In this document: one piece after another, positions 19,741 through 59,034 of the stretch
Layout: every line of letters starts with the position of its first letter
Position numbering within the stretch: the stretch's first letter is position 1
Assembly (NCBI GenBank): GCA_013239625.1
Contig: MU053588.1
Coordinates: 3,748,799-3,812,798, forward strand
Reading direction: 5' to 3'
Origin: Lama guanicoe
Lineage: Eukaryota
DNA length: 64,000 nt
Notes under the pieces: generated by a model
What the model was told of the DNA's origin: nothing
The model's input: the letters and a program-made list of their open reading frames with translations, nothing else
Database searches by the model: none
Program-made: the position numbers and the translations under genes

Positions 19741-22700
19741 GCTCCACACCTCTCTGCTCCTGCACGTGGCAGGTGGGCTTGATGGAGAGGCTTGAATGTG
19801 GACCGAGGAGAGGCGTAGACAGCGTTGTACTGGGTATTACAGATACAGATGAGTAACGTTCTCCTAAGGCTGAAAAGAGCTTTGAGGACAATGCCTGGAG
19901 CCCTTCAGTATTGAGCTAAATGCCTTTTCCCATCTTGGCTGTCTCAACTCTGATGGGACAGATTGTGCCCGTGGTGGGAGTTCAAGGTGGAATGGGGGGA
20001 ATCATCCCTCAAGCACCCGTCCCTCAGGTTGGCTACCCTTGTCTTCAGCTGTCAAAGGAAATAGGATCCCAGGAGTATTTCTGGTCCTCGTCCAGCCCTT
20101 TCATGTCACAGATGGAAGATAAGGCACTGGCCCAGGTCACCCACAGAGACAGTGGCAAAGCTGTGCTTGCTTCCCAGGCCCCTTCACCTGACAGGGGCTT
20201 TCTCTCCCATGATACGCCTTTTCTCCCCTATCTCACTCCTTTCCTGTATTGTGACCAGAGGCCCAACAACCTAAATTCCAGCCCTAGTTCTGCCACTGAT
20301 TAATGAATTAAAATAAATATTTACTAAGCACCGTCTGTATGTCAAAGCGCTATCCTAGGTACTGGGGATACAGCACAGAACAAGACAGGCACGGGGATAA
20401 TAGCCAATAAACAGGTAAATAAATAAGGAATTTTTCTATGGGAATAATTGCTACAAGGAAAATTAACCGGCTGAGATGAATAACTGAATACTGGGGGTGG
20501 GGGTGTGAGCTACTTTAGTTAACAGTGGTCAGGGAAGGCCTCTCTGAGGGGACATCTGAGCTGAGACCCGATTGACAAGAAGGAGCCAGTCATGGGAAGA
20601 TCTGGGGGCAGAGCATTCTGGGCAGAAGTAACAGAAAGTGCAGAGGTCCTAAGGCAGGACCCCGGTGGCCCACTCAAGTATCAGACAGAAGATCTATCAG
20701 GTTGGTTGGGGATGGGATGGGGCAGGGAATGAGAACAGGCAGGGGCCTTGTTGTGGGCTGTTGAGCCTCAAGCCTGCCCTCTCTGGGCTTTGCCCTCCCC
20801 ATCTAATATAACAGATTCTACCGGATGGCCTGTCAGGTCCCCCTTTTCTATTTTTGACATTGAAGAATTCTGTGGCTTCTTCTCTACATGTAGCTGGCAG
20901 CCTAGAACATTCCAGGCACCGTGCTTTTTGCCTTTGCCTCACTATAGCACTTTCCCATGGTCTGGAACACCTGCCCAGTGGTTCTGTGGGTCCCCTGCTC
21001 CCTGCAGTGTTCTCTGTGTACACCAGAAGGCAGCGTTCTCTGTGTCCCTCTCGGGGATCTCTGAGGTAGCCAACACAGAAACGTTTGGACTAGTGCAGCA
21101 GTACAGCTGCTTCTCCAAAAAGGCAGGTGTACAAAATACCAAGGCCAGAAAGGGTTAATGTTTAATGACAGAAGAAACCAAGACCCCTAAAGAAGAGAGG
21201 GATAGGGGAACAGACTCCCCAGAAAGCTCCATAATCGCTCAGCACCTGTAAAATAGGGGCAGTCATATCCCTTCCCAGGCAAACAGAGAAAGGCAGTTGC
21301 CAGAACCCAGATCCATTAGGGATTTGGGGACAACATCTCTGAGGCACGAGTTTCTGCCTTTCCACACCCAGAAGGCCTCATTCCTAATCTCTGCTACCCT
21401 CAGAGTCCACCATGTCCGGACCTCTTGCTTCCTCCTCTTATTTTTGTGGTACCATCCTCCCCAGAGGATGGGAAAGAAATTTGAGTCCCCAGGTCCCCAG
21501 AGGAACAAATAGTAGACACCCCTCTATTCTCCAAGAGGGACCAAAGGGTCCCCAGCTCTCTCACACAGCCCACCTGTTCCCTTCTCCCACCACCCAGGAA
21601 TTAGGAACCAAGGTCCCAGCCTTCTTGGGAGCCATAAGTCTGAGACCCCAGTAAAGTTTCAAAGCTCACTGCCTCTTGAGGAACTGGGAGGCTGCATGCA
21701 GGCCTAGCCCCACCCAGGAAACCTAGACCTTATATCCCTTTGTGGCTCAGAAGTCCAAGATTCCAGCTCCCCAGGGAACCCAGACACCCCACCCCCCATG
21801 CTGCAATCACCCTTCATCAAGAATCAGGGCTTCTACCCCCTCTCCCCCTGGAGGACTAGACATCTAATAGATCCAGTGTCCACTCCCTCGGAGACCAAGA
21901 TATGTCCCCTTCTAGGAGTCCACATCCTGTGGCTCCCAGAGAAACCAGGAGTCCTGTCCCCCAAACTCTATTCCCCTTCAGGACCTAGGAATCCTGGTGA
22001 CTAGATGTCACACATCTCTACCGGTAGTCAGAGCCCTCATCCCCTTCAAGCACCCAGGATTCCGAGAGGCGGCCCCCTGCTCTGTTATCTCACAGGCCCA
22101 GACATCCCATGCTAGAGTCTGGACCACCCCCATGCCCTCTCCCTCCAACCGGGACTTGGAGTCCGCAGCCGCTGACAGAGTCGGGCAGCCGGGACCCAGG
22201 GCACCCCGGTCCTCAACCCACCTCTCACTGCGCGGGCACCTGTGGTGCCAGCACTGCCTCGGCGTCGGCCCGCATCTCGTCGAGCGCCTGCAGCAGGACG
22301 CCGTGCGCCGCGCGGTAGCCCAGGCCGCCGGTGGCCGCCGCGCCGCCCGCGGGCCACAGGAAGGAGAGCGCGCCCAGCGCCGCGCCCCCGGCGGTGCCCT
22401 CGCCCGCCCACGAGCCCAACCTCGCCTCGACTTCAGCGCGCGTCACCGGACCCGGGAAGCGCGTCCGCTCGGCCAGCACCCCTGGCGCCAGACCCAGCGC
22501 GCGCTCGCGTCGTGCCAGCGCCGCGGGTTCGAGCCCCAGCGCCCGCCGCCACTCCGCCAGCTGACCGCGCAGGAGCGCCACGTCGCACGCCCAGCCCAGC
22601 CCTGGTACTGGAGCTGCCGCCGCCGCCAGGCTCGCTAGCAGGGCCGGCCGCCACGCCCCGGCCCGCAGCGCCGCAGCCTTGGTTCGGGCTGCGCGGGGAG

Positions 22701-23205
22701 ACACGGGTGGCAGCGCCAGCAGCAGCGCTCCTGCCTGGGCCGGGGGCAGCGCGCGCCGCAGCCACTCGCACAGCCCCGGGAGTCCGCCCGGCCGCAGCGG
22801 GAACACCGGCGGCGGCGCCTCCTCCAGCACCTCCCACGTCTCGTCCTCTGGGCCCAAGGCGGCCGCGCGCTCTGAGTCCCCGCTGCCTGATATCTTCACG
22901 CCCACGCCAACCGGCTGCAAACTCTCGCTGCCTGCTTCCTCTGAACCTTCCCCGCCACCTGCTTTCTGCGATCCGGGGCCACGTTTCTCCCTTTCCTCAC
23001 TGCGTGCGTTCTCCACATCCCTTCCGCCGGCGTTTTCTAAGCTCTCGCCGCTGGGCTGCTCCGCTGTTTCTTCTTCTTCCAGAGCCTCCGGATCCTCGCC
23101 CTCGCCGTCTGTTCGCACGCAGACCAGCGGCGCATCTGGTAGCACCAAGGGCCGGACCCGGGCCCAGTCCTTCTCAGTGGGGGCCCCAGGGGTGACAAGG
23201 ATGAG

Positions 23206-23482
23206 ACCGTCATAGTGGGTTGGGCGGGGGGTGGCATCAGTGCCCTCGGAGCCCAGAGGCGTGGGCCCCTTGGGCGCCGACGCAGGCACCGCACTTGGGT
23301 CTTCAGGATCTAACCCGAGTAAGCGTCATAGTGGGTTGGGTGGGGGGTGGCAGCAGTGCCCTCGGAGCCCAGAGGCACCGTCCAGAGCACCACGTTGGGG
23401 CGCTCTGGGGCCGGGTAGGGCGTGGGCCCCTCGGGCGCCGACGCAGGCACCGCACTTGGGTCTTCAGGATCTAACCCGAGTA
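23206..23482 (-). repeat. Tandem duplication inside the last IRGQ exon (116-bp copy 23206-23321, 161-bp copy 23322-23482)
   Basis: The copies differ by a 45-bp deletion and 4 substitutions. Confidence 0.93.
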
Positions 23483-24551
23483 GCAAGTCCAGCACAAGGC
23501 CCATGTCAGCCCTACCCGCCACGGCCAGGTCCAGACGCGCGCTGCCCAGTCGCTCCAGGCCGGCGCGAACCCACGACAGCGCCGCCTCCAGGCCACCGGT
23601 CTCGAAGGCCTCGCGCACAGCCTCCAACTCTGCAGCGCCCAGGACCTCAAAGCCATCCTGAGCGGGTGGCAGGAGCCTGCGGGGACAGGGAGGGATGGGA
23701 TCAAGAGCAGAAGAGGGACTAAGTGGTGGGAAGCTGGGCTAGGGGGACAGGATTGGGTTATGAAAAGGGCGAATCTTTCCGAATAAGCAGGAAAGGGAGG
23801 GGCCAGACTAATGCCACAGAAAATAGAAACCAGGGACATGAAGAAAAGGGCTTTAAAGCAGGGACAGGATGGCTAGATTGAAATCAGGTTTCCAACAGAA
23901 CCTAAAATGGAGACCTGACAAAGTCTTTCCCGGGCTCACACTCTTTGGGAGCTGGGCTTTCCGAGGGACCTGCTGGATTAAGAAAAGGCTGTACTGGGCG
24001 GGGCAAAACTCAGAGAGAGAGGGGCTTGGAGCAAAGGCAGAATTGCGACTGTATTGTGGACTAAACGAAAACTGGGCCCTATTCAACAAGGTCAAGGTCA
24101 CCAAGGGCACTCTTTTCTGAATAAGGAGTTGGGTAAAGACCAGTGAAGGGAAAAGCCTCATCTACTAGTTCTCACCAAGAGGGAGGAGAGGCTGCCCTTC
24201 CCTGAGCTTCGTTTTGATGTCTATAAAACGAGGCCGCTCGGCGTTGGGGGAGAAAATTCAGCAAGTGGGCACAGAAACGAGAGGGGATTAGAGAAAGGAA
24301 GTGGGGGAGGGCACCCAGAAACAACAAAGCTCGCTGAGGATGTGGCTTTCTGGAGACTGGGGTCGCTTGAGAGCCAAGCTGATGGCGGGGAGGAGGGTGA
24401 AGACGGGACAGAGTGAGAGCTCCTTCACAGTTTTGCCTGGGGGAAGTATTTGGGCGCGAGGTCCCGGCCTCTCTCAGAATTCTCGCGAGGAAGCGCGCCT
24501 TGCGACCTCAGAGCACTCGCAGGAGGCAGAACCTGGATGACAGGTCGGGAC

Positions 24552-24650
24552 TTCTAGCTGATCCTTGGCTGGGGCCTCTGCAGCGCCTCCGCCTGGCTCC
24601 GCAGCGCCGTCCGCAGGCGCTCCAATTTCTAGCTGATCCTTGGCTGGGGC
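24552..24650 (-). repeat. 49-bp copy of the IRGQ coding-exon 3' end (24576-24624 = 24897-24945) between 24-bp direct repeats (24552-24575, 24627-24650)
   Basis: Direct sequence comparison; 2 extra nt (AT, 24625-24626) at the right junction. Confidence 0.95.
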
Positions 24651-25429
24651 CTAGATGACAAAAAAGAGTCAAGCACCGAGCACTAGCTTGGGGTGGAGCC
24701 TCGCGGACCTCAAAACCTGAGCTGAGGGGTGGGGCCTGGATGAGGGAGCAGGGCTTCTAGCAGATACCCCGTTAGCAGGCCCCAAACTCGCTGGGGGCGG
24801 GGTCTCACGGACCTCAAAGAACACCCTCAGGGATGGGAGGTATAGACTAAATAAAGCTCCAGGCCTCTTCAGACCACCCTGAAACGCCGCGCTCACCTCT
24901 GCAGCGCCTCCGCCTGGCTCCGCAGCGCCGTCCGCAGGCGCTCCAGCTCCTCGCAGCCGTCGCTGCTGCGGCAGTCTGTCGGTACCACGAAGAGAGCCGC
25001 GGCTCCCAGCCCAGCGCTGTCCAGCAGGGCCGCTGTCTGATTCCGGGCCTGAGCTTCATTCTGTGAGTCCACAGGACGGAGGTTCCGCACAGCCAGCAGC
25101 GGGGTTCCTCGGGCTAGGGCGGCCCGTGCTGCCTCCCCCAGCTCTGGAGCCAAGGGCTCCCCATTCCCCTCCGGTCCGGGCAGCACCAGTACCAGCACGT
25201 TGGCCTCCGCTTTCCCAGGGCCCCGGCGCTGCGGGTGGACAGCTCAGCTCGCCCAGGAAGAGGCCAGGACCCGCAGCTCTCAAGCTGGGGAGCCCGGAAT
25301 CCGGCCGTCCGTCGGGGATCTCTACCGTCTCCACATCCTTGTCGCACAGCGCTGCGATCAGCGCAGACTTTCCTGAGCCCGGAGGCCCGAGGAACAAGAC
25401 CGTCACGTCACCCCGCGGCGTAGGCATAG

Positions 25430-25576
25430 CGAGCAGACAGCCGGCACACGGGAGAGCGCAGTCAGCAGCCGATCAGCCGATGAGAAGCCCCGCCCCTGGG
25501 GTCTGAGAACGGAGGCCGAAGAGGCTAGAAAGCCGTGATTTGGGGACGCCCAGACGCTTTCCGGGGGCTCTAATCT
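25430..25576 (-). repeat. 147-bp exact duplicate of IRGQ exon 1 fused to the first coding exon
   Basis: Identical to 25885-26031 by direct comparison. Confidence 0.95.
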
Positions 25577-25884
25577 CATGTAAAGCAAGGAGAGAGAAGA
25601 TCCCAGTCAGGGAACACCCAGCCTTTTTCTTTTCTAGCAGCCCGACTCTGGTCTCAGACTTCAGCCTTTCACTTTGTCCCCTCTTGCGTTCTCGGGTATC
25701 ACTCCCAAGCACCTAGAAATCTGCCGCCCATGCCCTATTCCCCAGGGACCCTGGAATCGTGTTTGCTCTCTTTCAGGGCATTTCCCTTTCCGCTTCAAAA
25801 ACTGAGAATTCGGCCTCCAGCCCCTTCCTCCCTCAGGGACACAGATTTTTTTAATCCTTCACTCCTTCCTTCCAAATCACCAAC

Positions 25885-26031
25885 CGAGCAGACAGCCGGC
25901 ACACGGGAGAGCGCAGTCAGCAGCCGATCAGCCGATGAGAAGCCCCGCCCCTGGGGTCTGAGAACGGAGGCCGAAGAGGCTAGAAAGCCGTGATTTGGGG
26001 ACGCCCAGACGCTTTCCGGGGGCTCTAATCT
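25885..26031 (-). other. IRGQ: Putative non-coding exon 1 (5' UTR) of IRGQ
   Basis: On the minus strand it begins at an Inr-like TCAGATT and ends at a donor TCG|GTTGGT. An identical copy is fused to CT-ATG at 25430-25576. Confidence 0.7.
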
Positions 26032-26650
26032 GACGTCATTCTTTTTAGGAGGGGGTGTGACTTGGAAGCGTGACCTCGGGGACATGGCCCTTTACAGCGC
26101 CTGCGCAGAACGGCCGAAGGGCGCTCTCTGTACGGGGCCTTAAACAATGAAGGAGCCACAGCGCGTGCGCGCCAGGAGCACCTACCACACTTGCGCAAAA
26201 CGCTTAGGACTGTACGGCACGGGTGGCTTGCAACGTCATCATTACGCACCCCAGTGCAGAGAAGGACCCCTCCCGTTATTTTTGAGGGCCGGGCTGGCGC
26301 TACTTCATCACCGCCGGATGGCAATCCGGGATCTCCGCTTCAAAAGTCTCATCAGGCGGAAGGCCTTGGAAACCACCTGAGACTCGGTGGGCCCCACCTC
26401 GCTTCCCTTCGGGTGACGGCGCTGAGACGAGCGACTGACAGGCGCAACGAAAGGCAGTCCCCTGCTGTCCGGAGAAAAGCGGAGGCCTGAGCCACCCGCC
26501 TTGGCAGGGAGCAGAGGGCAATGCCTGGGGCAGCGGGATACACCGGCTGAAACCGCGCTTGGGAAGCGGGAGCTTTGGGTGGTACAAGAGTTTCGGGATG
26601 TCAAAGGAAGATGTCTCCTGGGAAGAGGCAGGCTAAAGCGTGGGTACCAC
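26031..26650. promoter_or_regulatory. Bidirectional CpG-island promoter of IRGQ and ZNF576
   Basis: CpG-rich region between divergent genes. Full CRE palindrome TGACGTCA at 26031-26038. Confidence 0.75.
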
Positions 26651-27048: not shown

Positions 27049-29172
27049 ATGGAGCAGCAGGATTCGTCCAAGGAAAGAAGTCTCCAAAGTCCAGGAGGCG
27101 GCATCTGTGAGTACTGCCGACCAGAGGAGGGTGGGGTGCAGGAGCTGAAGCTAAAAGGATTACTAGAGCATTTCAGTGTCCAAGGCGTTGACAGGACTTG
27201 CCTGTTGGGAAGGAGCTGTAATGGCCCCCGAGCTGCCCTCCCAGAAGCTGTTCCTCCCCCACTTTTACCCTTAACTACTCTCAGACATACTCCCTCTGCA
27301 CTGTCCACATAAGCATGAAGGGGATGCAATTCAGAGGCACTGAGCAGCATCCAGAGAGACTTAGGGTGGGAGAGGTGGCTGGGAAAGGGCAGAGAGCCCC
27401 AATCCCAACTCTGCCCCAGACTTTCAGTGTGACTTGGGCCTCTGTTTCTCTATCTGTTAAAAGGGGTTGGCACTATTCCCCTCACAGGGCTGGTGTGAGG
27501 ACTAACGGCAGAAAAATGGAAAGCTTGATGTTTATGAAAGTAGCCAGTTAGACACAGGAAAAATGCAACAGCTTTTACTGAATGCTTATTATGTGCTAGG
27601 CACATTCTAAGAGTTTAACATTTGTTATCCAGTCCTTGCAGACCCTCTGTAATTGATAATTAGCACTTTCAGATGATGGGACTGAGGCAAAGAGAGGTTA
27701 AATATTTGTAACAATGAGAACCACAGTGTCAATGCTCTCCAGCCAAAGATCACCAGGGACATACCTGGAGTTGGAACAAGCTGGGTTTACTGCTCACTGC
27801 GTTGAGGAAGCACACACACCATGGGGCATCTCAGTAATAAGGATTTATTACAGGATTTGGGTTTGTGGTAGGCGATTTGGGGAAAGGTTCAAGAAAGGGG
27901 TTTTACTCTGGATGGATGCTGCCAGGAAGTGGGGGCAATTATGTGGCTGGCTGTCTCAATAAATCTTACCTAGAAGGAGGGAGGAACAAAGCACAGCCCA
28001 AGCTGCTTAGTAAAGCAGCAACCGGCACGGCACGCATATTAGCCAGGACAGGTGGGTGTTTGGCCATTTTTGTGGTTTGGACAGTGTTCACGTTTGTCTG
28101 TGTACAGATGGCATTATGGTGTGGTCTTGTCTTGACTCACCTCAGTCACAGTACGGCCTTGTCTGATGATGTTCTGTGAAACTGTTTATGTTCAGCAGGA
28201 GAACGCCAAGGCCCAGATCTGAGTGCCAGGCCAGCTCTGGCTGTGGGGCTGCTTTTCTCTCTCTCAGCAATAATTATTGCAAACCACTGTGTAGCACTGT
28301 TCTAAGCACTTTGTATAAGTTAATTCATTTGTTCCTTCCAACAGCCCTATGAAGTAGATAAAACAGTGTTTTCCAGGTGAAAACACTGTTTTTACTTGCC
28401 CAGGAAGCCACAGAACTGGCATTCAGTTCCAGGCAGTCTGGCTCCAGAGGCTGTGCCCTAATCACATGGCCCTGTGGGAAGGGCAGACTCCTGGGTTCCA
28501 GACCTGACTCCACTATTTCATTTCCTAGCTTTGTGACTGTCCACCAGGGCCTAACCTTTTTGAGCCTCAGTCTGCTCATCTGTAAAACAGGTCCAATAAT
28601 AGTTTGCCTGTACTGCTGTCCAGCGCTGACATAGCGTCTGGCACATAGTAAGCACCGCATGTTCATTGCTGGCATGATTCTGGGGCTGGCAGAGGTCCTG
28701 GAGACTCCTGCTGGCCTCCTTCAACCTCTTCCCACGTCCTTTAGGCCACCTGGGGGCCCTGCAGTGCACCCGCTGCCTCATCACCTTCGCCGATTCCAAG
28801 TTCCAGGAGCGTCACATGAAGCGGGAGCACCCAGCGGACTTCGTGGCCCAGAAGCTGCAGGGGGTCCTCTTCATCTGCTTCACCTGCGCCCGCTCTTTCC
28901 CCTCCTCCAAGGCCCTGATCGCCCACCAGCGCAGCCACGGTCCAGCCGCCAGACCCTCCCAGTCAGCTGCACCCACCACCACCCAGCCCACCTTCCCCTG
29001 TCCTGACTGTGGCAAGACCTTTGGGCAGGCTGCTTCTCTGAGGCGGCACCGCCAGGTGCACGAGGCCCGTGCCTCCCCTGGCCCCTTCGCCTGCACTGAG
29101 TGTGGTCAGGACTTTACCCAGGAAGCAGGGCTGCATCAACACTACATCCGGCATGCCCGGGGGGAGCTCTGA
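27049..29172 (+). CDS. ZNF576: Zinc finger protein 576 (C2H2); 161 aa from ATG 27049, or 170 aa if initiated at ACG 27022
   Basis: Exons 27022/27049-27106 and 28745-29172, GT-AG phase 1. Reads ...CTRCLITFADSKFQERHMKREH...CFTC...CPDC...CTEC...HYIRHARGEL*. AATAAA at 29832-29837. Confidence 0.95.
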
Positions 29173-37600: not shown

Positions 37601-40241
37601 CAGCAATGCTGAGCCGTAAGGCAGCCTCAGGAGGCATTTACTGAATGGCTGCAAAATAGGAAATACTTCCAGCTCTGAGCTGGGGGCTGGGGGCTGGGGG
37701 CTGGGGCCCCACCCCTCTTTCTCCTCCCACCTCTGACTTCACACCACATCCCCTCCAGGGTCTTCACTGCTTACTGTGACTTCATGAAGTTGGCCTGGGA
37801 AAGACAATCAAGTCGTCACCCATGGCTACCAGGCCTTTCATGTCCACTGTGACTTCCAGAACCACAAGCCCTTTTGTGGCCACCATGCCTTCTCCACCTA
37901 CAAGAACCACGAAGCCTGGCATGTCTCAGGCATCCACTGGACCCTCAATGCCCACAGCGTCTCCCAAGCCTCCTGGGTCCTTGAAGACCACCAGATCAGC
38001 AATGCCCAGCAGCTCCTCAGTGTCCACCAAGCCATCGACAGCCCCCAACTCAGTCACGAGCCCAAGTAGTTCCAAATCTACCAAATGGGCAAATACAAAG
38101 GCAGCCCCTTCTAACCAGCCTAGCAGCAAGTCCCAAGTTCACAGCAGGGCACAAACACCTAGCAAAGCCAGCACCGACACCAGGGCCAGCACTGACACCA
38201 GGAGTAGCAAAGCCAGCAAGGCCAGTGGGGTAAGGGGGCCCCGGCACAGAGGCACGCGCAGCCGGGGCAGAACTCCAGGCCGGAGGGGAAGCCGCAGCTC
38301 CAAGAGGTCAGCCAACAGGACCAGCACTCCCAGCAGGATAAGAACTCATGGTGCCAGATCAGGTATGCCCAGCAGGGTGAGAACTCCTACTTCCCAGCAA
38401 AACCAGAGGGCAGGGAAGAGTTATAGCAGACCAAGAAGCAACAACCGGGAAAGGAGTGAGAGCCAGCCTAGAAATACGAGCAGAAAGAAGAGCAAAAGCC
38501 CACCAGGAGCCTCGGGTATGGGGAAGAGTTCCAGCCTGTCTGTAACCCCTAGCAGGGCAAAGAGTTATAGCCCCACTAGAACTCCCTTCAGGGAGGAAGG
38601 TTACAGCCAATCTCCATCATCATCGAGGAGGGTGAAGAGCCACGGTCAGATGATCACCCCCAGCAGGAAGTGGAGTTACAGTCCAACTGAAGTGTCCAGC
38701 AGGGTTGAGAGTTACAACCAGGATACTGCACCCAGCAGGCCCCAGAGTCACAGCCAGTCTAGCACCCCTAGCAGGCACCGAAGTCGCAGTCGGAAGAGCA
38801 CCCACAGCAGGGTGAGAAGCCACAGTTGTAAGAGGAATCATAGTAGGGCAAGAAGTCGTACCCGAAGGGGAACTCCCAGTCAGATGGGAAAACACAGCCA
38901 GTCCAGGATCTGCAGCAAAGGGAAAAGTTATAACCAATCTAGAACCCCTAGCAAGGAGAGAGGTCACAGACGGTCTAGAACTCCTAGCAAGGAGAGAAAC
39001 CACAGCCGATCTAGAACATCCAGCAAAGAGAGAAGTCACAGATGGTCTAGAACTCCCAGTAAGGAGAGAGATCACAGCCGATCTAGAACCTCCAGGAGAG
39101 ACCAGAGCCGATCTAGAACTCACAGCAAGGAGAGAAGTCACAGGTGGTCTAGAACTCCCAGCAAGGAGAGAGAACACAGCCGATTTAGAACCTCCAGCAA
39201 GAAGAGAGACCAGAGCCGATCTAGAACCCCCAGCAAGGAGAGAGATCACAGCCGATCTAGAACCTCCAGCAAGGAGAGAGATCACAGCCGATCTAGAACC
39301 CCCAGCAAGGAGAGAGATCACAGCCGATCCAGAACCTCCAGGAGAGACCAGAGCCGATCTAGAACTCACAGCAAGCAGAGAAGTCACAGATGGTCTAGAA
39401 CTCCTAGCAAGGAGAGAGACCAGAGCCGATCTAGAACTCACAGCAAGGAGAGAAGTCACAGGTGGTCTAGAACTCCCAGCAAGGAGAGAGAACACAGCCG
39501 ATTTAGAACCCCCAGCAAGGAGAGAGATCACAGCCGATCTAGAACCCCCAGCAAGGAGAGAGATCACAGCCGATCCAGAACCTCCAGCAAGGAAAGCTAT
39601 TACACCCAATCGAGAACCCCCAGAAAAGAGAGCGGTTATAGACGACCTCGAACCTCCAGCAAAGAAAGAGATCATAGCCAAACTAGAACCTCCAGCAAGG
39701 AAAGCTATTACAGCCGCTCTAGAACCCCCAGAAAAGAAAGACACCACAGCCAACCTAGAACCCCCAGCGAGGAAAGATATTACAGCCGATCTAGAACCCC
39801 CCGAAAACAGAGAGATCACAGACGAACTTGGACCCCCAGCAAAGAAAGGGATCACAGCCAAACTAGAACTTCCAGCAACGAGAGAGATTACAGCCAATCT
39901 AGAACTCCCAGAAAGAAGAAAGACCACAGCCAATCTAGAACTTCCAGCAAAGAAAGAGATCACAGCAAGGAGAGAAATCCCAGCCAATCTACAACCCCCA
40001 GAAGTCTCAGCAAGAAAGGATCTCATAGCAGGTCACTAAGTCCCAATCACAATAGAACACCTAGTGAGAAAAGGAGCCACTCCTCCTCAAGATTTCTCAG
40101 CGGAGCTCCAATCCCAAACCAGGATGATATTCAAGCCAACACCACCACCTCTAAGGCCATCTCACCTGGAGAGAGGTCCTCATCATCTTCTTCCAAGCTG
40201 GCATAGCCTCCAGTCTCAGCTGGCTCACGGGTCTCTGTCAT
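34638..40241 (-). CDS. ZNF428: Zinc finger protein 428 (192 aa; acidic stretches plus one C-terminal C2H2 finger)
   Basis: Exons 40166-40241 (MTETREPAETGGYASLEEDDEDLSP) and 34638-35140 (GPEHSSDSEY...YHCTECEDSFDNLGELHGHFMLHARGEV*), phase-1 GT-AG intron. AATAAA on the minus strand at 34484-34489 followed by a GT-rich element. Probable non-coding exon 1 donor at 42816/42817. Confidence 0.96.
35620..35922 (-). mobile_element. LINE-1 3' end, antisense
   Basis: ttcagattcttttccattatag...gaatatagttccctgtgctatacagtagg...tttggtaacc, an artiodactyl L1 3'UTR pattern. Confidence 0.8.
37822..40206 (+). CDS. SRRM5: Serine/arginine repetitive matrix protein 5 (single coding exon; 794 aa, or 773 aa from the Kozak ATG at 37885)
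   Basis: 2.4-kb Ser/Arg/Thr-rich ORF ending PGERSSSSSSKLA*, nested antisense in a ZNF428 intron as expected from synteny. gccaccATG at 37885. AATAAA at 40404-40409. Confidence 0.93.
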   Translation: MATRPFMSTVTSRTTSPFVATMPSPPTRTTKPGMSQASTGPSMPTASPKPPGSLKTTRSAMPSSSSVSTKPSTAPNSVTSPSSSKSTKWANTKAAPSNQPSSKSQVHSRAQTPSKASTDTRASTDTRSSKASKASGVRGPRHRGTRSRGRTPGRRGSRSSKRSANRTSTPSRIRTHGARSGMPSRVRTPTSQQNQRAGKSYSRPRSNNRERSESQPRNTSRKKSKSPPGASGMGKSSSLSVTPSRAKSYSPTRTPFREEGYSQSPSSSRRVKSHGQMITPSRKWSYSPTEVSSRVESYNQDTAPSRPQSHSQSSTPSRHRSRSRKSTHSRVRSHSCKRNHSRARSRTRRGTPSQMGKHSQSRICSKGKSYNQSRTPSKERGHRRSRTPSKERNHSRSRTSSKERSHRWSRTPSKERDHSRSRTSRRDQSRSRTHSKERSHRWSRTPSKEREHSRFRTSSKKRDQSRSRTPSKERDHSRSRTSSKERDHSRSRTPSKERDHSRSRTSRRDQSRSRTHSKQRSHRWSRTPSKERDQSRSRTHSKERSHRWSRTPSKEREHSRFRTPSKERDHSRSRTPSKERDHSRSRTSSKESYYTQSRTPRKESGYRRPRTSSKERDHSQTRTSSKESYYSRSRTPRKERHHSQPRTPSEERYYSRSRTPRKQRDHRRTWTPSKERDHSQTRTSSNERDYSQSRTPRKKKDHSQSRTSSKERDHSKERNPSQSTTPRSLSKKGSHSRSLSPNHNRTPSEKRSHSSSRFLSGAPIPNQDDIQANTTTSKAISPGERSSSSSSKLA
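38935..39966 (+). repeat. Coding minisatellite, ~29 units of 36 bp (RSRTPSKERDHS), two of them 30-bp variants
   Basis: Unit cgatctagaacccccagcaaggagagagatcacagc repeated. 27x36 + 2x30 = 1032 nt matches the span. Confidence 0.95.
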
Positions 40242-58809: not shown

Positions 58810-59034
58810 NNNNNNNNNNNNNNNNNNNNNNNNNNNNNNNNNNNNNNNNNNNNNNNNNNNNNNNNNNNNNNNNNNNNNNNNNNNNNNNNNNNNNNNNNNN
58901 NNNNNNNNNNNNNNNNNNNNNNNNNNNNNNNNNNNNNNNNNNNNNNNNNNNNNNNNNNNNNNNNNNNNNNNNNNNNNNNNNNNNNNNNNNNNNNNNNNNN
59001 NNNNNNNNNNNNNNNNNNNNNNNNNNNNNNNNNN
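58810..59034. other. Assembly gap (225 N) over the CADM4 promoter/5' UTR
   Basis: Run of N. Confidence 0.99.

What the first reader, a model, noticed from the sequence alone, without database searches (positions are those of the whole stretch)
25430..26031. IRGQ exon 1 appears copied, in spliced form, onto its own exon 2
Seen: 25430-25576 is a perfect 147-bp copy of 25885-26031. On the gene (minus) strand the upstream copy ends CTGCTCG|GTTGGT, a splice donor. The downstream copy ends CTGCTCG|CTATG, fused 2 nt before the IRGQ start codon, which is the junction splicing would make. The copy's 5' end starts at an Inr-like TC|AGATT and is preceded by a G where the source has C. It sits right after the intron's polypyrimidine tract (tcttctctctccttgctttaca), where the acceptor AG should be. 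Inference: a cDNA of the mRNA 5' end (the G possibly cap-derived) was integrated in cis at the intron 1/exon 2 boundary, an arrested intron-loss or RNA-templated repair event. A random DNA duplication would not be expected to stop at both a donor and a likely TSS. Main alternative: an assembly artefact from RNA-seq or retrocopy reads.
Basis: partly seen in the sequence, partly recalled or inferred. Interest (0 to 1): 0.85.

Follow-up and report, generated by a model that had tools for sequence, protein, structure and literature searches.

The report
Spliced exon copy in misassembled IRGQ
A perfect second copy of the first exon of the camelid IRGQ gene sits, in spliced form, in front of its second exon, but the same gene holds three more assembly-like defects, so it is more likely a stitching error than a true RNA-templated insertion.

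Summary
Window 25430-25576 is a 147/147 copy of 25885-26031 on the minus-strand gene IRGQ. The copy has the boundaries of a spliced, 5'-complete mRNA. It starts at the A of an initiator-like tcAgatt, ends before gttggt, and is fused 2 nt before the ATG, just after a polypyrimidine tract.

A second case supports RNA origin. The last 49 nt of exon 2 end exactly at the donor fixed by protein alignment. They recur in intron 2, joined to sequence that follows a strong acceptor-like site.

The same 3.5 kb also carries a frameshift in exon 2 and a diverged, ORF-breaking tandem duplicate in exon 3. A 214-bp leftover contig holds a second allele. Four annotated camelid IRGQ proteins are intact at 621 aa. 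In 264 kb, all short-range direct repeats of at least 97% identity lie in this gene.

No retrocopy exists in the assembly. The best of 14 public DNA runs hold 0.93 of the words, which is the ceiling expected if both junctions and the frameshift are absent.

The read-level test could not be run. I judge mis-assembly about 0.65 and a real in-cis RNA-templated insertion about 0.25.

The parts
25885..26031 (-). Source copy: non-coding exon 1 of IRGQ. It starts at the A of tcAgatt, one base after tgacgtc(a), and is followed by gttggt (putative donor).
   Evidence: The transcribed status is inferred from the RNA word share of 0.43, which matches the model value 0.429.
25579..25884 (-). Intron 1. It begins gttggt and ends with the polypyrimidine tract and ...ctttaca. 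The expected acceptor AG is not intact.
   Evidence: sequence read directly.
25577..25578 (-). Two bases (tg) between the intron end and the copy that match neither flank. The g could be cap-derived; both could be an erroneous contig or read tip.
   Evidence: For an untemplated 5' G in retro-copied RNA see passages of PMC9341517.
25430..25576 (-). Second, perfect copy of exon 1, fused to the first two bases of exon 2 (ct) and the ATG. This is the exon 1|exon 2 junction in DNA form.
24897..25429 (-). IRGQ exon 2: ATG at 25427, aa 1-177. It is broken by a frameshift at 25211-25213, where the window reads gggaaagcg and relatives encode W-A-A-E.
24575..24624 (-). Copy of the last 49 nt of exon 2 plus 1 ambiguous g, sitting inside intron 2. 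It ends exactly at the exon 2 donor and is joined to gccccagcc...
   Evidence: D2; aa 160-177 found twice.
24552..24652 (-). 75-nt insertion unit. A 26-nt direct repeat (24627-24652 = 24552-24577) brackets 'at' plus the exon 2 end copy. The first repeat copy follows the acceptor-like ctcttttttgtcatctag.
   Evidence: (D5, spacing 75).
23208..23482 (-). Tandem duplicate inside exon 3. The first copy (23324-23482) matches relatives. The second (23208-23321) has a 45-nt deletion flanked by gcc and 4 amino-acid changes. The junction puts a stop in frame.
22228..23681 (-). IRGQ exon 3 coding part (aa 176-621 of relatives), intact apart from the duplicate above.
22728..22941 (-). Stretch of exon 3 for which the assembly also holds a 214-bp unplaced contig (G000:C20610) with 5 differences. 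Three of them give residues seen in annotated Vicugna pacos proteins.

Best explanation
The tandem arrangement (exon 1, intron 1, exon 1 again, exon 2) is most likely a local mis-assembly and not the true structure of the animal's chromosome.

A second, intron-less (RNA-derived) version of IRGQ sequence was threaded into the genomic path. At three places the assembly runs through the genomic version, steps back, and runs again through a version that lacks a segment:
- intron 1 (308 nt);
- a 243-nt GT..AG piece of intron 2;
- 45 nt of exon 3.

The first step-back gives the 147-nt copy. It begins where the mRNA begins and carries the exon 1|exon 2 junction.

The source of the intron-less sequence is not shown. 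My split is cDNA-type reads used in gap filling or patching (about 0.4), and an unassembled young retrocopy or an intron-less second allele of the same individual (about 0.25).

Shown: the copies, their boundaries, the clustering and the intact relatives. Inferred: that the join between the intron end and the copy does not exist in genomic DNA.
For: (1) Four anomalies lie within 3.5 kb of one gene: the 147-nt copy, the 75-nt insertion with the exon 2 end, the exon 3 duplicate and a frameshift.

(2) Locality. In the 64-kb window, all 4 of 4 short-range direct-repeat rows (at least 30 bp, at least 95%) are in IRGQ. In 264,000 bases (window plus 100 kb each side), all 4 of the 6 rows that reach 97% are in IRGQ; the other two rows are 81% and 90%.

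(3) As assembled, the conserved gene is broken twice. All 4 fetched camelid proteins, out of 83 hits, are intact at 621 aa. They have one copy of the duplicated stretch and no frameshift. Two of them carry NCBI's 'LOW QUALITY PROTEIN' tag, so this gene has troubled other assemblies too.

(4) A 214-bp unplaced contig carries a second allele of exon 3, so two versions of the locus were in the read set.

(5) All three copies are step-backs into a shorter version. Two of the missing segments have GT..AG ends, and one uses the donor fixed by protein alignment.

(6) Of 24 listed public runs, the 14 that hold half or more of the words (13 marked 'DNA?', one of unknown kind; 4 organism labels, 7 studies) hold 0.88-0.93 of the sampled words of 25000-26500. 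A genome without both junctions and without the frameshift would hold 0.935; one with the insertion would hold 0.978.

(7) Earlier unchecked notes on the same genome report a spliced exon copy in a CUL2 intron and a 138-bp perfect repeat at CACNA1S. Recurrence in one assembly fits a technical cause better than rare germline events.
Against: - No read-level evidence was obtained (laid nothing).
- There is no gap (N) near the copies. The only N run in 264 kb is at 58810-59034.
- The junctions carry 2 unmatched bases (tg, at), as real end-joined molecules do. Graph mis-joins usually occur at shared sequence.
- No trace of cDNA input was found. A recalled SMART-type cDNA PCR primer has 0 matches with up to 2 mismatches in the 2.05-Gb assembly.
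- No retrocopy or spare spliced contig exists in the assembly.
- The rest of the 264 kb, a gene-dense region, shows no such event. If cDNA reads were used, they rarely did harm.
- The word-share argument has a sampling error of about 3 words in 152. It cannot exclude an allele private to the sequenced animal.
Confidence: 0.65

Rival explanations
1. This is a real germline insertion made by RNA-templated break repair in cis.

A break at the intron 1/exon 2 border was repaired by annealing the exon 2 end to the spliced IRGQ mRNA. The mRNA was copied back to its capped 5' end (147 nt plus a cap-derived G). The product was then end-joined to the intron side with one extra base.

The exon 2 end copy in intron 2 and perhaps the exon 3 duplicate would be further template switches of the same complex event. 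The result is a broken IRGQ allele carried beside an intact one.
For: - The copy starts at the A of an initiator-like motif and carries the spliced junction.
- The G before it fits an untemplated 5' G linked to cap copying (passages of PMC9341517).
- The second junction uses the true exon 2 donor and a good acceptor-like site. Its geometry (26-nt flank duplicated, 2 filler bases) is what one-ended copying from a spliced RNA followed by end joining would give.
- The 45-nt deletion flanked by gcc in the exon 3 copy looks like a polymerase or RT jump.
- RNA-templated repair with spliced mRNA, and cDNA patches at breaks, are documented (passages of PMC12065846 and PMC5110952).
- A second allele exists in the assembly, so a null allele could be tolerated.
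- No gap flanks the copies.
Against: - It needs three or four independent or coupled rare events in one gene.
- The break had to fall within 1 nt of the acceptor.
- The frameshift 215 nt downstream is not explained.
- The 147-nt and 49-nt copies are perfect while the exon 3 copy differs at 4 of about 116 bases, so one error-prone process does not fit all of them.
- None of the 14 best public runs exceeds the share expected without the junctions.
- A similar case is reported in another gene of the same assembly. As biology, that would imply an unheard-of rate.
Confidence: 0.25
2. This is a plain DNA-level insertional duplication unrelated to RNA. Either the downstream copy is the native 5' UTR and the upstream one is the extra copy, or a replication template switch copied 147 nt, and the match to splice and start signals is coincidence.
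For: - In the assembly the first AG after the polypyrimidine tract is the first two bases of the downstream copy. An exon 2 beginning there is conceivable.
- The putative donor tcg|gttggt is weak by the recalled consensus.
- The word shares cannot tell which copy is extra (0.937 against 0.935).
Against: - The intron end ...ccttgctttaca lacks only the G of a consensus acceptor, whereas gAG is a poor one (recalled consensus).
- The copy start coincides with an initiator-like A beside a CRE-like site.
- The RNA share of 0.43 equals the model with no transcribed sequence upstream of 26031.
- The independent exon 2 end copy ends exactly at a donor fixed by protein alignment. That is hard to get from DNA template switching.
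Confidence: 0.05

Closest known systems
RNA-templated double-strand-break repair and its whole-intron-deletion scar (Jalan et al. 2025, PMC12065846; passages read)
   Same: A spliced exon-exon junction of the gene's own mRNA is written into the gene itself. More than one junction of the same gene is affected, like the 'consecutive' events listed there.
   Different: There the intron is precisely removed. Here intron 1 is kept and exon 1 is doubled, which needs one-ended copying plus end joining. Those scars were confirmed in tumour DNA; this one is seen only in an assembly.
Class 2 templated sequence insertions / TSIPs (Onozawa and Aplan 2016, PMC5110952; passages read)
   Same: A short patch copied from RNA, which can hold spliced exons. 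No poly(A), no L1-type target duplication, and non-templated bases at the junction.
   Different: TSIP donors lie in distant regions and the patch lands seemingly at random. Here the donor is 455 nt upstream in the same gene, and one side is a seamless homologous join.
False duplications in genome assemblies (Ko et al. 2022, PMC9516828; passages read)
   Same: False exon duplications on the same scaffold. They are driven by diverged haplotypes or read errors and break gene models. A second allele is left over as a small contig.
   Different: The listed hallmark of a gap between the copies is absent. Those duplications are not expected to carry splice junctions.
   Same: Same genome and same kind: an extra exon copy that begins with the spliced end of the previous exon, in cis. 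It was also not confirmed in reads.
   Different: It lies in another gene and on another scaffold. I did not see its sequence.

Membership tests
IRGQ (immunity-related GTPase family Q) gene | Full-length protein homology to annotated IRGQ | tested here: met
   83 hits at E <= 1e-30, the top ones named IRGQ (Vicugna pacos 98-99%, Camelus ferus 96%); aa 1-621 of P0002 map to exons 2 and 3 of the window, apart from the stretch I left out of the search.
Whole-intron-deletion scar of RNA-templated repair | Intron precisely absent from genomic DNA | tested here: not met
   the 306-308-nt intron 1 is still present between the two copies.
Whole-intron-deletion scar of RNA-templated repair | Exon-exon junction present in genomic DNA molecules | tested here: inconclusive
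   The junction is in the assembly. The best public DNA runs hold no more words than expected without it.
Class 2 templated sequence insertion | Insert templated from RNA (spliced exons) | tested here: met
   an exon 1|exon 2 junction, and an exon 2 donor|alternative acceptor junction.
Class 2 templated sequence insertion | No poly(A), no L1-type target-site duplication, end-joining marks at the junction | tested here: met
   no A-run, no duplication around the 147-nt copy, 2 unmatched bases. The 26-nt repeat at the second insertion is explained by template overlap.
Class 2 templated sequence insertion | Donor sequence lies in a distant genomic region | tested here: not met
   the donor is 455 nt upstream in the same gene.
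Class 2 templated sequence insertion | Heritable insertion seen in genomic DNA of individuals | not testable with these tools
   laid nothing. Only word shares are at hand.
L1-mediated processed pseudogene (retrocopy) | Intron-less copy with poly(A) tail and target-site duplication at another locus | tested here: not met
   no other copy of the IRGQ exons, introns or proximal 3' UTR in the 2.05-Gb assembly. The only extra hits are a 214-bp allele contig and interspersed-repeat hits.
False duplication of an assembly (Ko et al. 2022) | Half or low read depth and discordant pairs over the copies | not testable with these tools
   laid nothing.
False duplication of an assembly (Ko et al. 2022) | Gap between the duplicated pair | tested here: not met
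   the only N run in 264 kb is at 58810-59034.
False duplication of an assembly (Ko et al. 2022) | Second haplotype present in the data; duplicate absent from independent records of the species | tested here: inconclusive
   A leftover allele contig exists. The coding duplicates are absent from all 4 fetched camelid proteins. The non-coding 147-nt copy cannot be compared.

The most novel reading that the evidence does not exclude
The arrangement is real. One allele of IRGQ in this camelid was rebuilt in the germline by a single complex repair event that switched several times between the chromosome and the gene's own spliced, capped mRNA. That event left a run-off copy of exon 1 with a cap-derived G at the acceptor of exon 2, a second spliced patch in intron 2, and an error-laden re-copy in exon 3. 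It would be a natural 'arrested intron loss', showing RNA-templated repair in a mammalian germline with both template ends visible. If the CUL2 case of the same genome is also real, the process would recur in this lineage.
Probability: 0.2. Interest if true: 0.8.

Novelty: not a real feature. Interest (0 to 1): 0.35.

Why it matters
If real, this would be a rare natural record of a mammalian germline break repaired from the gene's own spliced mRNA. The mRNA 5' end, a possible cap-derived base and the splice junction would all be preserved. That bears directly on how introns are lost and on RNA-templated repair outside cancer cells.

If it is an artefact, as I think more likely, it still matters in practice. 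The IRGQ model of this assembly is unreliable: a false 5' UTR doubling, a false frameshift and a false exon duplicate. The assembly may also hold other RNA-derived patches, such as the CUL2 note, that mimic exotic biology.

Tried and rejected
The decisive test is therefore missing.
- I searched the large protein collection with the small ORF that crosses both junctions of the copy (25406-25606). The hope was to find contigs of other runs with or without the junction. No candidate was found.
- I scanned metagenome contigs for host DNA carrying the intron end: 0 matches. I also scanned for the IRGQ N-terminus. All 21 confirmed loci matched only the short P-loop part of the query (residues 9-33), at 55-83% identity, so I did not take them for IRGQ. 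I did not inspect them further. No outgroup DNA was obtained, so the native acceptor sequence is inferred, not seen.
- Retrocopy source: rejected as far as the assembly goes. An unassembled or collapsed one remains possible.
- cDNA-library trace: a recalled SMART-type PCR primer gave 0 hits. The bases before the two spliced copies (a-tg, a-at) loosely resemble the recalled tail of a template-switch oligo. With only 2-3 bases this is no evidence, and I dropped it.
- De Bruijn bubble model: the duplicated flank lengths (147/0, 49/24, 64/53) do not fit one k. A simple graph artefact is not supported.
- A wider survey of the scaffold for similar repeats could not be done.
- I tried to locate CUL2 through Pfam PF00888. 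This gave 53 matches on 8 scaffolds and no visible duplicated exon. The earlier CUL2 note stays unchecked.

Full report
**Observation**

On the minus strand, 25430-25576 is an exact copy of 25885-26031: 147 of 147 bases, a direct repeat with spacing 455 and self-BLAST E 3e-75.
- The upstream copy reads gacgtc|AGATTA...CTGCTCG|gttggt.
- The downstream copy reads ctttaca-tg|AGATTA...CTGCTCG|ctATGcc.

**The gene**

The ATG at 25427 opens IRGQ. The C-terminal 307 residues (22228-23148) find 83 proteins at E <= 1e-30. The best are named immunity-related GTPase family Q protein: Vicugna pacos 98-99%, Camelus ferus 96%, all 621 aa.

I fetched 4 of the 83. tblastn of P0002 maps as follows:
- aa 1-71 to 25427-25215;
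- aa 73-177 in another frame, down to 24896;
- aa 176-296 to 23681-23319;
- aa 314-621 to 23151-22228.

So exon 2 is 24897-25429. Its donor, cagag|gtgagc, is fixed by the protein alignment. Exon 3 starts at about 23681.

**Is the copy RNA-like?**

I think yes, for these reasons.
- The source copy begins at the A of tcAgatt. This matches the initiator consensus YYANWYY (recalled) and lies one base after tgacgtc(a), a CRE-like palindrome (recalled).
- The source copy is followed by gt.
- The second copy is fused 2 nt before the ATG. It sits right after tcttctctctccttgcttt-aca, which lacks only the G of a consensus acceptor.
- The alternative is that the downstream copy is native and the upstream one extra. 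That would make the acceptor a poor gAG and leave the start-site match to chance. I give it about 0.05.
- The G before the copy fits the untemplated 5' guanine that retro-copied RNAs can carry (passages of PMC9341517). The T is unexplained.
- The 147 nt hold no ATG (read). If the structure were real, the likely effect would be a 5' UTR lengthened by about 145 nt through use of the AG at 25576-25575. This is inference.

**A second spliced junction in the same gene**

Inside intron 2 the sequence runs as follows:
- catctAG;
- the 24 nt gccccagcc...ctagaa;
- 'at';
- the last 49 nt of exon 2, ending cagag;
- the same 24 nt again;
- then the rest of the intron.

The exon piece ends exactly at the donor fixed above. 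It is joined to sequence that natively follows ctcttttttgtcatctag, a good acceptor-like site 245 nt into the intron. The missing piece therefore has GT..AG ends. This is hard to obtain without splicing, and it supports an RNA origin for the 147-nt copy as well.

**More defects in the same 3.5 kb**

- Exon 2 has a frameshift at 25211-25213. The window reads gggaaagcg where relatives encode W-A-A-E.
- Exon 3 has a tandem duplicate. The first copy (23324-23482) equals the relatives. The second (23208-23321) lacks 45 nt flanked by gcc and has four amino-acid changes. The junction creates a stop.
- The assembly also keeps a 214-bp unplaced contig (C20610) that matches 22728-22941 with 5 differences. 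Three of them give residues found in the annotated alpaca proteins. Two alleles of this locus were therefore in the data.
- All 4 fetched relatives are intact. Two of them carry the tag 'LOW QUALITY PROTEIN'.

**Locality**

- In the window, all 4 of 4 short-range direct-repeat rows (at least 30 bp, at least 95%, under 3 kb apart) lie in IRGQ.
- In 264,000 bases (window plus 100 kb each side of scaffold C1236) there are 6 rows of at least 40 bp. The 4 that reach 97% all lie in IRGQ; one repeat is listed twice. The other two rows are 81% and 90%.
- There is one N run in these 264 kb, at 58810-59034.
- A wider survey was not possible.

**Where could intron-less sequence come from?**

- The 2.05-Gb assembly holds no other copy of the IRGQ exons, introns or proximal 3' UTR. 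The only extra hits are the 214-bp contig and interspersed-repeat hits in the UTR.
- A recalled SMART-type cDNA primer has no match with up to 2 mismatches.
- So neither a retrocopy nor cDNA input is shown.

**Public runs**

Of 24 listed runs:
- 14 hold half or more of the sampled 31-mers of 25000-26500, with shares of 0.88-0.93 and none higher. Thirteen are marked 'DNA?' and one is of unknown kind; they span 4 organism labels and 7 studies.
- 5 RNA runs hold 0.43 and one holds 0.22.
- 4 hold next to none.

My count of the words gives these expected shares:
- 0.935 for a genome that lacks both junctions of the copy and the frameshift;
- 0.978 for one that has the insertion but not the frameshift;
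- 0.429 for a spliced mRNA of exon 1 plus exon 2 without the frameshift.

The fit is good. It supports transcription and splicing as proposed, and it argues that the insertion is not common in these animals. The sampling error is about 3 of 152 words, and an allele private to the assembled animal is not excluded. The attempt to lay reads gave nothing, so the junctions were never seen or missed in real molecules.

**Earlier notes of this scan (AI notes, not checked here)**

The same genome is reported to carry:
- a 182-nt exon copy that starts with the spliced end of the previous exon, in a CUL2 intron (e1-7788518);
- a repeated CUL2 donor (e1-7788522);
- a 138-bp perfect repeat around a CACNA1S exon (e1-7788566).

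I could not locate the CUL2 case.

**Weighing**

All three copies are step-backs into a shorter second version of the gene, and two of the missing pieces are introns.

A single cause is needed for a cluster that is unique in 264 kb. Two candidates remain: a second, RNA-derived sequence threaded in by the assembler, or one complex repair event that used the mRNA as a template.

For mis-assembly speak:
- the frameshift and the ORF-breaking duplicate in a gene that is intact in relatives;
- the leftover allele contig;
- the recurrence of the phenomenon in another gene of the same assembly;
- the word-share ceiling.

For a real event speak:
- the unmatched bases at the junctions;
- the absence of gaps;
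- the absence of any trace of cDNA input or a retrocopy;
- the exact start at the likely cap site.

I put mis-assembly at 0.65, a real in-cis RNA-templated insertion at 0.25, a DNA-only duplication at 0.05, and the rest open.

**Comparison with known kinds**

- RNA-templated break repair leaves whole-intron deletions when spliced mRNA guides repair (PMC12065846, passages). Here the junction is present but the intron is kept, so this is not that scar.
- Class 2 templated insertions are cDNA patches at breaks with end-joining marks (PMC5110952, passages). Here the donor is the same gene, 455 nt away, and one side is seamless.
- False exon duplications on one scaffold are common in older assemblies and stem mostly from diverged haplotypes (PMC9516828, passages). 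Splice junctions are not part of that picture.
- The classical cDNA-recombination model of intron loss is recalled, not read.

**Verdict**

Its existence in the chromosome is unproven and, on balance, unlikely.

Noticed in passing
window 24552-24652: A 75-nt insertion in IRGQ intron 2: the last 49 nt of exon 2, ending at the true donor, joined to sequence that follows an acceptor-like site and bracketed by a 26-nt direct repeat. This is a second spliced junction written into the gene.
   Followed up: yes
window 23208-23482: Tandem duplicate in IRGQ exon 3. Its second copy has a 45-nt deletion flanked by gcc and four amino-acid changes, and it breaks the reading frame. It is absent from 4 of 4 fetched camelid IRGQ proteins.
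   Followed up: yes
window 25211-25213: Net 1-nt insertion (gggaaagcg) that shifts the IRGQ frame after residue 71. Relatives read W-A-A-E here.
   Followed up: partly
L004 = G000:C20610:1-214, matching window 22728-22941: Unplaced 214-bp contig with 5 differences from IRGQ exon 3. Three of them give residues seen in annotated alpaca proteins, so it is a left-over second allele.
   Followed up: yes
window 37780-40203 (+), repeat array 38937-39966: An 808-residue open frame holding about 29 copies of a 36-bp unit (77% matches). By recalled synteny with IRGQ this may be the SRRM5-like single-exon gene. Not tested.
   Followed up: no
window 28678-29169 (+): Open frame with a C2H2 zinc-finger-like stretch (…CLITFADSKFQERHMKREH…) on the strand opposite to IRGQ. 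It may be the divergently transcribed zinc-finger neighbour. The name is recalled and not tested.
   Followed up: no
G000:C6476:2279960-2281736: The Pfam Cullin profile (positions 1-584) matches one contiguous 1.8-kb stretch with a single TGA inside. This looks like an intron-less cullin retrocopy.
   Followed up: no
window 58810-59034: The only run of N (225 bases) in the 264 kb examined.
   Followed up: no
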